From a virus (Duplodnaviria; Heunggongvirae; Uroviricota; Caudoviricetes): a stretch of 64,000 bases of DNA. The notes under the pieces were generated by a model. The model was given only the letters and a program-made list of their open reading frames with translations, made no database searches and was not told the DNA's origin. The position numbers were made by a program, and so were the translations under genes. Below are positions 18,040 through 19,707 of the stretch, one piece after another; the first letter of the stretch is position 1; every line of letters begins with the position of its first letter. Location of the stretch: the IMG/VR virus record IMGVR_UViG_2974549561_000001, positions 1 to 64,000 of that record, one strand, 5' to 3'.

Positions 18040-18300
18040 GCCTCGTAAGTTGATAAACAACCTGCGACCCGCTGCTAAACAGGTGGCAGGACGTGACGGG
18101 GTTAGCAGACTGGCACTTACGAAACCAGCAGGCCGAAGCCTCCCCATCACGCCCCACCATAATTCGGGCGTAACGTGGTTTACGGACACAAAAATACCGC
18201 AATATCGGAAATCTGCGGTTGTCCGCGTAAGTATTCAGGCTGCTAAACCCGGTCGCAGAATTTGCTACGACGGCGGAACTATAAGCCTGAACGATTAAAA
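18040..18300 (-). ncRNA. c4: immI leader expected to encode c4 antisense RNA (ends not determined)
   Basis: non-coding region between the Op51-like operator and icd; inferred from P1 organisation only. Confidence 0.3.
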
Positions 18301-18344
18301 GGTCAATATGATGCGAAAAGATAGCATTCGCGACTTAAAAATAC

Positions 18345-18361
18345 AAATTTATTAGAGCAGT
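18345..18361. promoter_or_regulatory. C1 operator (Op51-equivalent)
   Basis: AAATTTATTAGAGCAGT, 16/17 to reverse complement of consensus. Confidence 0.6.
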
Positions 18362-18651
18362 TTAGTGTAGTGCAATAGATATATTATTTGTGATGAAAAA
18401 TAATGCAGAGGGATATTGTAACTTTAAGATGGATATCAATAGTCGATACATAAATTAAGTTAGCAATAAACTATTAACTTAAGAAATAATGCAGATGGTG
18501 AACTTGTCTCTGACTTTTCAGCTATACACAATAAGTTAGGGATAGCTTATAAAAAGTTGATTAATTGATATAAGTCAATGGGAGTATTCTTGTTTACTTT
18601 CCGTTCTCGTGGTAACTTCTCGCCGGTTTTTGTTTTTCTGGGATGATTCTT

Positions 18652-19164
18652 ATGTCTAAAAAGTATACTTTATGCGCTCTTGTTGTATCTGCAATTCTTC
18701 TTTCTGGGTGTCAATCTAGCGGTGCTGATTATGCTGCCGATGTTTATGATACCGCTCAATTGAATTCGAAGCAGGAAACAAAGACAGTCAATATTATCTC
18801 TGTGCTTCCAGCTAAAGTGAAAGTTGATAATAAAGCTAATAAAGAAGCGGCACAGACATTTGGTGCGGTACTGGGAGCTGTTGCTGGGGGCGTTGCCGGT
18901 TATAATGTTAAAGGCACATCGACACTGGGTGCTGTAGCTGGCGGTACTGGTGGTGCGGCTCTTGGTGCAGCGGCTGGTTCTTTGGTTAGTGATAAAACAA
19001 TTGTTGAAGGTGTTTCACTGACTTATAAAGAAGGAACTAAGGTGTTCACTTCAACTCAAGTTGGTAAAGCATGCCAGTTTACAACGGGGCTTGCTGTGCT
19101 TATTTCAACTAAAGATAATGAAACTCGAATTCAGCCAAATGCTACTTGTCCAGAAAAGAAATAA
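18652..19164 (+). CDS. glycine-zipper outer-membrane lipoprotein
   Basis: lipobox LLSG|C; Gly/Ala-rich GxxxG stretch (GAVLGAVAGGVAGY...GAVAGGTGGAALGAAAGS). Confidence 0.6.
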   Translation: MSKKYTLCALVVSAILLSGCQSSGADYAADVYDTAQLNSKQETKTVNIISVLPAKVKVDNKANKEAAQTFGAVLGAVAGGVAGYNVKGTSTLGAVAGGTGGAALGAAAGSLVSDKTIVEGVSLTYKEGTKVFTSTQVGKACQFTTGLAVLISTKDNETRIQPNATCPEKK

Positions 19165-19167
19165 TTT

Positions 19168-19707
19168 ATGAATAAAATTATTTTATTTCTAATCTTTTCT
19201 ACGTTTAGTGTAGGCACTGCCTTGGCTAACTCGTTGCAAAGTCAAATTGCTGCTATTGCTCAAGCGGAAAATGAAGGGCGAGCTAAAGAGCAGCAAGCTG
19301 AGGATGCCAGAAAAGAACTTATTCGCCAACAAGCACAAGCTGAACGTATTAGAAGAGAAAAAGCAGCATCTGCCGCTGCTGCACGCGAAAAACAGCGTGT
19401 TGCTGCAGAAAATGAACGTAGAGCGAAACGAGAAGCCGAGCTAGCAAATGACAAGAAGCGAGATCAAGCTTATGAGGATGAGCTTCGCAAGCTGCAACTC
19501 GAAAGTATGAAACTCGAACTGCAAGCAAAAGCGGCTCGTGTCCAGCGAGAAAACGATTTTATAGAGCAGGAGTTGAAGGAGAGAGCAGCTAAGACAGATG
19601 TAATTCAGTCTGAGGCTGATGCAAATAGAAATATTTCTACAGGAAGTAAAGATTTACTGCAAAGCGAAGGAAAAGCTAGAGAGAAGAAAGCTAGCAGTTG
19701 GTGGTAG
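19168..19707 (+). CDS. secreted coiled-coil protein
   Basis: signal peptide MNKIILFLIFSTFSVGTALA; Ala/Glu/Arg/Lys-rich helical body; starts 4 bp after the lipoprotein gene. Confidence 0.55.
   Translation: MNKIILFLIFSTFSVGTALANSLQSQIAAIAQAENEGRAKEQQAEDARKELIRQQAQAERIRREKAASAAAAREKQRVAAENERRAKREAELANDKKRDQAYEDELRKLQLESMKLELQAKAARVQRENDFIEQELKERAAKTDVIQSEADANRNISTGSKDLLQSEGKAREKKASSWW

What the first reader, a model, noticed from the sequence alone, without database searches (positions are those of the whole stretch)
18300..19707. Two-gene envelope module at the position of the P1 sim locus
Divergent from c4/icd/ant, two tightly linked genes encode a glycine-zipper lipoprotein (lipobox LLSGC) and a signal-peptide-bearing Ala/Glu/Arg-rich coiled-coil protein. 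An AT-rich leader upstream holds the Op51-like operator and a twice-repeated AAATAATGCAGA motif. Periplasmic or outer-membrane proteins at this position suggest a superinfection-exclusion or envelope-remodelling function different from what I recall of P1 sim.
Basis: partly seen in the sequence, partly recalled or inferred. Interest (0 to 1): 0.55.

Follow-up and report, generated by a model that had tools for sequence, protein, structure and literature searches.

The report
Phage P7 copy of yfgH-yfgI
The two genes are the already-annotated phage P7 genes upf50.5 and upf50.0, a phage-borne copy of the bacterial outer-membrane operon yfgH-yfgI that fills the slot where phage P1 has its sim exclusion genes; what they do for the phage has never been tested.

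Summary
Window 18643-19164 encodes a lipoprotein (lipobox LLSGC, Gly-zipper hairpin). Window 19168-19707 encodes a signal-peptide-bearing Ala/Glu/Arg-rich helical protein. They lie 3 nt apart, divergent from c4/icd/ant.

They are not new. Both proteins are 100% identical to phage P7 Upf50.5 and Upf50.0 (GenBank AF503408). A 1376-bp cassette (18360-19735) replaces P1 simABC between the C1 operator Op51 and the late promoter LPsit. There is no similarity to SimA/B/C.

The pair is a diverged copy (67% and 47% aa identity) of the E. coli core operon yfgH-yfgI. YfgH is a SlyB-like outer-membrane lipoprotein reported to stabilise the outer membrane under stress. YfgI is DUF5384. In 50 of 50 species-representative genomes DUF5384 follows a YfgH-like gene.

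In PLSDB this cassette (168 plasmids, plus 20 with an 84% allele) outnumbers sim (140). Related copies sit beside tail-fibre genes in phiP27-like prophages. Both genes are under strong purifying selection (dN/dS about 0.05).

The most likely role is an envelope-acting lysogenic-conversion module. Superinfection exclusion is possible but untested. The repeated 12-mer is real (P about 0.005) but is absent from the sister allele.

Known genes, modest interest.

The parts
18345..18361 (-). C1 repressor operator Op51 / Op(c4). It belongs to the conserved P1 backbone and forms the left junction of the cassette.
   Evidence: ACTGCTCTAATAAATTT, one mismatch from the consensus; 4 sites in the window against 0.03 expected. 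P7 annotates it as Op(c4). Homology with P1 ends at 18359.
18360..19735 (+). The 1376-bp cassette that replaces the 1513-bp simABC segment of P1.
   Evidence: blastn of the window against P1: homology covers 17001-18359 and 19736-21000 only. The geometry is the same in 17 IMG/VR P1-like loci and in P7. None of those loci has SimC.
18360..18642 (+). AT-rich leader (31% GC) upstream of the lipoprotein gene. The promoter has not been mapped.
   Evidence: Composition. No Rfam family matches here. Only the proximal ~90 nt are conserved with the 84% sister allele.
18376..18404 (+). Sigma-70-like promoter match, TAGATA-17-AATAAT. Its -10-like hexamer lies inside the first copy of the repeated motif.
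   Evidence: 9 of 12 matches. The number of promoter-like sites in the region is no higher than in shuffles (3 found, 3.4 expected), so this is weak evidence.
18398..18412 (+). Repeated motif, copy 1: AAATAATGCAGAGGG.
   Evidence: P about 0.005. Its ATG opens a 16-codon mini-ORF with no Shine-Dalgarno sequence (read from the sequence).
18484..18498 (+). Repeated motif, copy 2: AAATAATGCAGATGG, 86 nt after copy 1.
   Evidence: Both copies are present in 16 of the 17 IMG/VR loci carrying the 99-100% allele and in P7. Neither is present in the 84% allele.
18564..18579 (.). Imperfect palindrome ATTGATATAAGTCAAT inside the leader block shared with the sister allele (ATTGATATACATCAAT there). Candidate regulatory site.
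   Evidence: Leader alignment of the window against pLR-25_1. This is an inference only.
18643..19164 (+). upf50.5 homolog: a YfgH-family, SlyB-like glycine-zipper outer-membrane lipoprotein. The probable true start is 18652. The lipidated Cys codon is 18709-18711 and the Gly-zipper hairpin spans about 18862-18978.
   Evidence: 100% aa identity to P7 Upf50.5. 67% identity to E. coli YfgH, E 6e-73. Family profile against SlyB 7OJF, E 1e-9, full length. Foldseek hit to 7ojf, E 9e-7. Invariant residues.
19168..19707 (+). upf50.0 homolog: a YfgI/DUF5384 secreted coiled-coil protein. The signal peptide is encoded by 19168-19227.
   Evidence: Pfam DUF5384 at 147.8 bits against a cut-off of 25. 100% identity to P7 Upf50.0. 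47% identity to E. coli YfgI. Predicted as a single long helix, pLDDT 87.7.
19737..19756 (+). Late promoter LPsit (-22 box and -10 TAGAAT). It belongs to the conserved backbone and forms the right junction of the cassette.
   Evidence: P7 annotation mapped onto the window. Homology with P1 resumes at 19736.

Best explanation
**What it is.** This is the P7-type allele of the variable 'sim slot' of P1-like phage-plasmids. It is a two-gene operon from a mobile-element lineage of the bacterial yfgH-yfgI module.

**How it most likely works (inferred).**
1. The first product is exported by Sec, lipidated at Cys23 and sorted to the outer membrane. Gln at +2 means there is no Asp retention signal.
2. 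By homology to YfgH and SlyB, it inserts its glycine-zipper helical hairpin into the outer membrane and assembles into rings. Those rings corral lipid and outer-membrane-protein patches and stabilise the membrane.
3. The second product is secreted into the periplasm. It forms a long alpha-helical, probably oligomeric, coiled coil of up to about 23 nm that works together with the lipoprotein.
4. Expressed from the prophage, the pair changes or reinforces the envelope of the lysogen. This is lysogenic conversion: it benefits the carrier cell, and it may also hinder incoming phages or other envelope attack.

**Shown versus inferred.** Shown: identity, homology, cassette boundaries, strict gene pairing, prevalence and purifying selection. 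Inferred: localisation, ring formation, partnership of the two proteins, expression in lysogens, and any phenotype.
For: **Identity and location**
- Both proteins are identical to P7 Upf50.5 and Upf50.0.
- The cassette replaces simABC cleanly between Op51 and LPsit.

**Homology**
- The pair is homologous to the E. coli core operon yfgH-yfgI, which is present in 5420 of 5426 complete genomes. Protein identities are 67% and 47%.
- The lipoprotein family profile matches SlyB over its full length, and SlyB is the only significant fold match.
- YfgH fractionates with the outer membrane. Its deletion sensitises cells to SDS+EDTA, it is induced by LptD, BamA or LpxC depletion, and its overexpression rescues those depletions (bioRxiv 10.64898/2025.12.22.696046). 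It also shows aggravating genetic interactions with lptD (PMC3219608).

**Pairing**
- DUF5384 is preceded by a YfgH-like gene on the same strand in 50 of 50 species-representative genomes.
- Pairwise identities of the two genes correlate across 8 loci (r = 0.87).

**Evidence that it is selected in phages**
- dN/dS is 0.06 and 0.04 between the two P1-like alleles, with dS above 1.
- PLSDB holds 168 plasmids with this allele (at least 95% identity) plus 20 with the 84% allele, against 140 with SimC.
- Related copies lie beside tail-fibre genes in phiP27-like prophages at three different chromosomal contexts.
Against: - No experiment addresses the phage copy, and I found no paper on upf50.5 or upf50.0.
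- E. coli already has yfgHI, so simply adding dosage is not an obvious benefit. The divergence of the phage copy hints at a modified role.
- The AlphaFold2 monomer model of the lipoprotein is poor (pLDDT 55).
- No promoter could be identified above chance, so expression in lysogens is assumed.
- The YfgH preprint does not mention yfgI at all, so the partnership of the two proteins rests on synteny alone.
Confidence: 0.55

Rival explanations
1. Dedicated superinfection exclusion, the functional analogue of Sim. The lipoprotein rings and the periplasmic coiled coil would block adsorption, tail-tube penetration or DNA entry of incoming P1-like or other phages.
For: - It occupies exactly the slot of simABC, whose products are also secreted.
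- In phiP27-like prophages it sits beside tail-fibre genes at the prophage end. From my own knowledge, that is the typical place for exclusion genes such as cor.
- The copies on mobile elements form their own lineage, distinct from the host core genes.
- The Gly-zipper hairpin aligns weakly with the transmembrane helix pair of the surface-exclusion lipoprotein TraT (hhalign probability 86%; Pfam TraT E 7e-5).
- Variants of the slot also carry nuclease-type genes, which suggests a defence hot spot.
Against: - There is no homology to Sim and no PADLOC hit.
- The TraT match is below the Pfam cut-off, covers only low-complexity Gly/Ala helices, and is not significant in the fold search.
- P1 and P7 are reported to be heteroimmune and able to coexist (PMC6906374).
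- The characterised homolog YfgH has a housekeeping stress role.
Confidence: 0.25
2. A serum-resistance or virulence gene in the manner of Bor or TraT. The outer-membrane lipoprotein would protect the lysogen from complement or host antimicrobial peptides.
For: - Weak TraT similarity.
- An outer-membrane lipoprotein carried by temperate phages of enteric bacteria from humans and animals.
- In S. Typhi the orthologous pair srgIL is regulated by SdiA and AHL (PMC11619404).
Against: - It fails the TraT family threshold.
- There are no data on serum resistance.
- The pair also occurs as a chromosomal module in free-living and insect-associated bacteria such as Xenorhabdus, Nitrosomonas and Tolumonas.
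Confidence: 0.07
3. Neutral hitch-hiking host DNA with no function for the phage.
For: - The slot is a known low-GC recombination hot spot that holds varied cargo (PMC9603915, PMC6906374).
- The pair has clear host homologs.
Against: - Purifying selection on both genes is strong (dN/dS 0.04-0.06).
- It is the majority allele among P1-like plasmids.
- It recurs in unrelated temperate phages.
- Both reading frames are intact in all 18 loci examined.
Confidence: 0.06
4. A lysis accessory (two-component spanin-like pair) or a tail-assembly helper co-transcribed with pmgC, tub and sit.
For: - An outer-membrane lipoprotein plus a coiled-coil periplasmic protein superficially resembles o-spanin plus i-spanin.
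- No terminator was seen between the DUF5384 stop codon and LPsit.
- One phage record labels the two genes as tail proteins.
Against: - The coiled-coil protein has a cleavable signal peptide, not an N-terminal membrane anchor.
- The lipoprotein is 151 aa when mature and SlyB-like, unlike the much smaller typical o-spanin (my own knowledge).
- The spanin PHROG hit is E 0.038 and covers the signal peptide only.
- The genes lie upstream of the late promoter, not behind it.
- P1 forms virions and lyses cells without them, having sim in that position. The sim genes are non-essential in P1 (PMC10695390).
- The host core homologs have no role in lysis.
Confidence: 0.03

Closest known systems
Phage P7 upf50.5 / upf50.0 (GenBank AF503408)
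   Same: Both proteins are 100% identical, and the nucleotide sequence is 98.9% identical over 18200-19800. The position between Op(c4) and LPsit is the same, and P7 annotates the same signal peptides.
   Different: Nothing of substance differs. The window is nearest to natural P1-like plasmids: 100% identity over 18643-19707 with NZ_CP021729.
E. coli yfgH-yfgI operon (YfgH is a SlyB-like outer-membrane-stabilising lipoprotein; YfgI is DUF5384)
   Same: The gene order, protein lengths, lipobox, Gly-zipper, two invariant C-terminal cysteines and the conserved C-terminal half of DUF5384 all match. Protein identities are 67% and 47%.
   Different: The window copy belongs to a diverged mobile-element lineage whose DUF5384 protein ends in SWW, where the core gene ends in WFN. 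It has a different AT-rich leader. It sits on a phage-plasmid, not beside guaA.
SlyB (PDB 7OJF / 7OJG)
   Same: Both are lipoproteins with a Gly-zipper helical hairpin inserted in a small beta domain. The profile match covers the full length (E 1e-9) and SlyB is the top fold hit.
   Different: Identity is only about 24% in the structural alignment. From my own knowledge, SlyB has no DUF5384 partner gene. The YfgH preprint reports that yfgH and slyB mutants have different suppressors and do not cross-complement.
P1 SimA/SimB/SimC (superimmunity / superinfection exclusion)
   Same: Same slot, same orientation, low GC content and secreted products.
   Different: There is no sequence similarity. 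Sim has three genes and this module has two, and the folds differ.
TraT surface-exclusion lipoprotein of F-like plasmids (PDB 9FS5)
   Same: Both are outer-membrane lipoproteins carried by a mobile element with a pair of membrane helices. The hairpin region aligns weakly.
   Different: The match is below the Pfam cut-off (23.1 against 31 bits) and the fold search is not significant (E 0.27). TraT has a different LptE-like core domain (PMC12658005).

Membership tests
YfgH family (SlyB-like glycine-zipper outer-membrane lipoproteins) | Signal peptide with a lipobox and a lipidated Cys, and no Asp at +2 | tested here: met
   MSKKYTLCALVVSAILLSG|CQ. The Cys is invariant in 42 homologs.
YfgH family (SlyB-like glycine-zipper outer-membrane lipoproteins) | Full-length sequence similarity to E. 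coli YfgH | tested here: met
   67% identity over 171 aa with no gaps, E 6e-73.
YfgH family (SlyB-like glycine-zipper outer-membrane lipoproteins) | Glycine-zipper two-helix hairpin (GxxxG repeats) | tested here: met
   G74, G78, G82, G104 and G108 are invariant. The model has helices at 64-88 and 94-113. The Pfam Rick_17kDa_Anti and Gly-zipper hits are below their cut-offs.
YfgH family (SlyB-like glycine-zipper outer-membrane lipoproteins) | Homology to the solved SlyB fold | tested here: met
   Profile against 7OJF, E 9.7e-10, positions 9-162 against 6-153. Foldseek E 8.6e-7, TM-score 0.49/0.57, from a low-confidence model.
YfgH family (SlyB-like glycine-zipper outer-membrane lipoproteins) | Outer-membrane localisation and ring oligomerisation | not testable with these tools
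   Needs membrane fractionation and cryo-EM. No multimer prediction tool was available.
YfgI / DUF5384 | Pfam PF17358 above the gathering score | tested here: met
   147.8 bits against a cut-off of 25, E 3e-43. 47% identity to E. coli YfgI.
YfgI / DUF5384 | Lies immediately downstream of a YfgH-like gene on the same strand | tested here: met
   The gap is 3 nt here. The arrangement holds in 50 of 50 species-representative genomes. In 8 of them the apparent gap is only the unmatched N-terminal half of DUF5384.
P1 Sim (SimA/B/C) superinfection exclusion | Sequence similarity to SimA, SimB or SimC | tested here: not met
   The best BLASTP E-value is 0.07 over 30 aa in a two-sequence search.
P1 Sim (SimA/B/C) superinfection exclusion | Exclusion phenotype: infection blocked after adsorption | not testable with these tools
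   Needs plating, adsorption and DNA-entry assays.
TraT surface exclusion / complement resistance | Pfam PF05818 above the gathering score and a TraT core-domain fold | tested here: not met
   23.1 bits against a cut-off of 31. hhalign covers only 72 columns of the hairpin region. Foldseek E 0.27.
Two-component spanin (Rz/Rz1-like) | An i-spanin with an N-terminal membrane anchor, a small o-spanin lipoprotein, and a location in the lysis cassette | tested here: not met
   The coiled-coil protein has a cleavable signal peptide. The lipoprotein is SlyB-like and 151 aa when mature. The PHROG spanin hit is E 0.038 over the signal peptide only. The locus is in immI, not in a lysis cassette.
Catalogued anti-phage defence systems (PADLOC-DB 2.0) | A match to any defence-system protein model | tested here: not met
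   No families matched either protein at E up to 1.

The most novel reading that the evidence does not exclude
The mobile-element lineage of YfgH/YfgI found in P1-like phage-plasmids, phiP27-like prophages and an IS-rich island is a previously unrecognised kind of phage-encoded envelope armour or superinfection-exclusion system. SlyB-like rings in the outer membrane, coupled to a long (up to about 23 nm) periplasmic DUF5384 coiled coil, would physically block tail-tube penetration or DNA entry. This system would have displaced Sim in most natural P1-like elements. As a by-product, it would assign a function to the strictly YfgH-linked DUF5384 family.
Probability: 0.2. Interest if true: 0.65.

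Novelty: already known. Interest (0 to 1): 0.3.

Why it matters
The genes themselves are catalogued, so the locus is not a discovery. The work here adds four things:
- a functional lead, from the recent YfgH and SlyB studies, for a cassette that is the commoner allele of the P1 sim slot in sequenced plasmids;
- evidence that temperate phages repeatedly carry this pair under purifying selection;
- the observation that DUF5384 (YfgI) is an obligate neighbour of YfgH across Proteobacteria, a point the YfgH preprint does not mention;
- correction of propagated misannotations ('DNA methyltransferase', 'tail protein').

P1-like phage-plasmids spread resistance genes in Enterobacteriaceae. If the cassette hardens the outer membrane or excludes phages, it would bear on their fitness and on phage therapy.

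Tried and rejected
- **Similarity to Sim:** none found.
- **PADLOC:** no hit.
- **PDB search with single sequences:** nothing significant. Only the family profile found SlyB. The DUF5384 profile found no solved relative.
- **AlphaFold2 model of the lipoprotein:** low confidence (pLDDT 55). I used it only as supporting evidence.
- **My initial recollections:** I recalled that the K-12 homologs were yafY/yfjS/yfjT and that sim is co-directional with c4. Both were wrong.
- **IMG/VR scan:** 61 of 80 hits were the host yfgHI flank at prophage edges, not phage cargo, and the TL-2011b 'phage' copy is the same artefact.
- **Leader analysis:** no tandem repeat by TRF. The two 86-nt units align only weakly (z = 3.8 against mononucleotide shuffles). 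No leader conservation beyond the sister allele. No Rfam family. Promoter-like sites are no more frequent than chance. A sigma-E-type promoter sought by eye did not fit.
- **The Salmonella Rep3-type contig (L017):** no megablast match to any phage record, so I do not call it a phage-plasmid.
- **Literature:** nothing on upf50.5 or upf50.0. The Lobocka 2004 P1 genome paper was not available.
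Full report
**1. What is in the sequence**

The window is a P1-like phage-plasmid (Punavirus). Around the finding the map is as follows:

| Feature | Coordinates | Strand |
|---|---|---|
| repL | 14931-15773 | - |
| kilA | 15803-16603 | - |
| ant1 | 16768-17814 | - |
| icd | 17811-18032 | - |
| C4 antisense RNA (Rfam RF01695, 70.8 bits) | 18079-18164 | - |
| c4 a1/b1 target element | 18232-18284 | - |
| C1 operator Op51 / Op(c4) | 18345-18361 | - |
| AT-rich leader | 18360-18642 | + |
| lipoprotein gene | 18643-19164 | + |
| DUF5384 gene | 19168-19707 | + |
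| late promoter LPsit | 19737-19756 | + |
| pmgC/tubA | 19788-20354 | + |
| tub | 20365-20976 | + |
| pmgB | 20991-21872 | + |
| sit | 21954-25367 | + |

- The lipobox is LLSGC, and the glycine zipper is there.
- The second protein has a signal peptide. Its mature part is 18.9% Ala, 14.5% Glu and 11.3% Arg.
- The leader is 31% GC.
- The operator has one mismatch from the consensus. The window holds 4 such sites against 0.03 expected.
- The 12-mer AAATAATGCAGA occurs at 18398 and 18484.

**2. It is the P7 allele of the sim slot**

Megablast of 18200-19800 gives 98.9% identity to phage P7 (AF503408) and 99.7% to several natural 'P1' isolates. At protein level both products are 100% identical to P7 Upf50.5 and Upf50.0. 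The P7 record already describes these as an outer-membrane lipoprotein and a membrane protein of unknown function, with signal peptides, similar to E. coli proteins.

Aligned with P1, homology stops at 18359, two bases inside the outer edge of the C1 operator. It resumes at 19736, the first base of the LPsit -22 box. So a 1376-bp cassette replaces the 1513-bp simA-simB-simC segment in the same orientation. The cassette has the same length in P7 and in 17 IMG/VR P1-like contigs, and none of those loci encodes SimC. Neither product resembles SimA, SimB or SimC.

The sim region is already listed as one of eight low-GC variable regions of P1-like phage-plasmids (PMC9603915; PMC6906374). In PLSDB the Upf50.5-type lipoprotein is found at 95% identity or more in 168 plasmids and as an 84% allele in 20 more. 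SimC is found at 95% or more in 140. The allele in this window is therefore the commoner one.

**3. What the proteins are**

The cassette matches the chromosome of 5420 of 5426 complete E. coli genomes at about 69% nucleotide identity, at the operon yfgH-yfgI next to guaA.

*The lipoprotein.*
- It is 67% identical to YfgH over its whole length.
- A profile of 42 family members matches the solved lipoprotein SlyB (7OJF) end to end (E 1e-9).
- SlyB is the only significant Foldseek hit of the model, although the model itself is low-confidence.
- The invariant residues are the lipidated Cys, five zipper glycines and two C-terminal cysteines.

*The second protein.*
- It is a clear DUF5384 member (147.8 bits) and is 47% identical to YfgI.
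- It is predicted as one uninterrupted helix with pLDDT 87.7. For the 159-residue mature protein at 0.15 nm per residue, that would be about 23 nm.
- Only its C-terminal half is strongly conserved.
- It has no solved relative.

*What is published on the host genes.*
- YfgH fractionates with the outer membrane. Its loss sensitises cells to SDS+EDTA, it is induced by depletion of LptD, BamA or LpxC, and its overexpression rescues those depletions. It is modelled as SlyB-like rings (bioRxiv 10.64898/2025.12.22.696046).
- yfgH shows aggravating genetic interactions with lptD (PMC3219608).
- yfgI mutants are reported to be susceptible to DNA damage, and the S. Typhi orthologs srgIL are regulated by SdiA and AHL (PMC11619404).
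- The YfgH preprint never mentions yfgI.

**4. The pair is a strict two-gene module and a recurrent phage cargo**

In one genome per species, all 50 DUF5384 loci recovered have a YfgH-like gene directly upstream on the same strand. The hosts range from Enterobacterales to Pseudomonas, Haemophilus, Photobacterium, Shewanella, Nitrosomonas and Parvibaculum.

Outside P1-like elements the pair occurs in these contexts:
- at the tail-fibre end of phiP27-like prophages, in three chromosomal contexts: the E. coli yecD/yecE site, the E. coli tor locus, and Salmonella;
- in an IS-rich E. coli island;
- on a ~102-kb Salmonella contig next to a Rep_3 initiator. I could not confirm that this is a phage-plasmid.

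The P1-like, island and yecE/Salmonella prophage copies resemble one another more than the E. coli core genes. For DUF5384 they are 65-80% identical to each other against about 48% to the core gene, and they share a C-terminal SWW. Across 8 loci the pairwise identities of the two genes correlate (r = 0.87).

Between the two P1-like alleles dS exceeds 1, while dN/dS is 0.06 for the lipoprotein and 0.04 for DUF5384. Both genes are therefore kept functional on mobile elements.

One caution applies to database counts. Most 'viral' database hits (61 of 80 IMG/VR loci, and the phage TL-2011b record) are only the host yfgG-yfgH-yfgI flank of prophages integrated beside yfgI.

**5. The leader and the repeat**

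An exact repeat of 12 nt or more appears in only 0.55% of dinucleotide-preserving shuffles of the leader, so the repeat is unlikely to be chance.

Evidence for a function is thin, however.
- Both copies are kept in P7 and in 16 of the 17 IMG/VR loci that carry this allele. They are absent from the 84% sister allele and from every other cassette leader.
- A third copy at 42551 is simply a stop/start overlap.
- TRF finds no tandem repeat.
- Each leader copy contains the hexamer AATAAT. The first copy forms the -10 of the only + strand promoter-like site (18376-18404). Two tandem promoters are therefore a possible reading, but promoter-like sites here are no more frequent than in shuffles.
- Each copy also opens a 16-codon mini-ORF without a Shine-Dalgarno sequence.

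The only leader block shared with the sister allele is the proximal ~90 nt, which includes the palindrome ATTGATATAAGTCAAT at 18564-18579. No Rfam family matches the leader.

**6. Mechanism and rivals**

The best-supported reading is an envelope-acting lysogenic-conversion module that works like YfgH and SlyB. An outer-membrane lipoprotein forms glycine-zipper rings and is partnered by a long periplasmic coiled coil. I give this a confidence of 0.55 as a mechanism. The identity of the genes is essentially certain.

The rivals are:

| Rival | Confidence | Main point |
|---|---|---|
| Dedicated superinfection exclusion | 0.25 | Favoured by the slot, by the tail-fibre-adjacent location in prophages, by the separate mobile lineage and by a weak TraT-like hairpin match. 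Untested, without any family support, and in tension with the reported coexistence of P1 and P7 (PMC6906374). |
| Serum resistance | 0.07 | Rests on the weak TraT similarity only. |
| Neutral cargo | 0.06 | Argued against by purifying selection and prevalence. |
| Spanin or tail-assembly role | 0.03 | The defining spanin features are not met. |

**7. Verdict**

The genes are already known, as P7 upf50.5/upf50.0 and members of the yfgH/yfgI family.

The added value is a functional lead, the prevalence figures, the strict YfgH-DUF5384 pairing and the correction of misannotations. Interest is 0.3.

Noticed in passing
window 18643-19164 and database records NC_050152, NC_042128, NC_019445, OR339795: The SlyB-like lipoprotein is labelled 'DNA methyltransferase' in RefSeq phage records and in phrog_1277. 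In phage phi456 the pair is labelled 'minor tail protein' and 'tail tip protein'. These are propagated misannotations.
   Followed up: partly
L004 (phage TL-2011b record) and L036, L039-L098 (IMG/VR): The 'phage' copies at about 67-69% identity are the host yfgG-yfgH-yfgI flank included at the edge of prophages integrated next to yfgI/guaA. This points to an integration hot spot and to imprecise prophage boundaries. 61 of 80 IMG/VR loci are of this kind.
   Followed up: yes
L005 (plasmid pLR-25_1, NZ_AP027501) 3510-6148: A second, 84%-identical allele of the pair occupies the same slot in about 20 P1-like plasmids, including one from Cronobacter. In the locus examined (pLR-25_1) it is followed by an extra 419-aa DUF559 / REase_MTES_1575 nuclease-domain gene before pmgC.
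   Followed up: partly
L009-L012, L013, L015: phiP27-like prophages carry a yfgHI-like pair between the tail-fibre assembly gene and the prophage end, in three different chromosomal contexts. In L015 a PLD-family nuclease with DpdK/DrmC-like matches lies next to it.
   Followed up: partly
L099-L148 (one genome per species): DUF5384 is preceded by a YfgH-like lipoprotein gene in all 50 loci recovered, from several gamma-proteobacterial orders and from beta- and alpha-proteobacteria. The YfgH preprint does not mention yfgI.
   Followed up: yes
window 42551-42565: A third copy of AAATAATGCAGA lies at the stop/start overlap of a 995-aa ORF (39579-42566) and a 103-aa ORF with an acidic C-terminus (42556-42867). 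There its ATG is the start codon of the downstream ORF.
   Followed up: partly
window 18403-18453 and 18489-18539: Each leader copy of the motif opens a 16-codon mini-ORF (MQRDIVTLRWISIVDT and MQMVNLSLTFQLYTIS). Neither has a recognisable Shine-Dalgarno sequence. The equal lengths may be coincidence in AT-rich DNA.
   Followed up: no
window 18190-18271 (-): Rfam isrK (Hfq-binding RNA) matches at 47.9 bits, just under its gathering score of 50. The match overlaps the c4 a1/b1 target region upstream of the C4 RNA.
   Followed up: no
L006 (pYLMB10c, NZ_CP073991) 3118-5669: A 7.5-kb mobilisable ColE1-type plasmid carries a YfgH-like gene (75% identity). The plasmid's incomplete gene table lists no DUF5384 gene. 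The YfgH-like gene lies beside a phosphoethanolamine transferase gene and an IS1 element.
   Followed up: no
window 19747-19783: A 12-bp inverted repeat (CTCGTAGAATCT ... AGATTCTACGAG) overlaps the -10 of LPsit and ends 5 nt before the pmgC start codon. It is conserved in P1. No terminator was seen between the DUF5384 stop codon and LPsit, so read-through from the cassette into the tail operon is conceivable.
   Followed up: no
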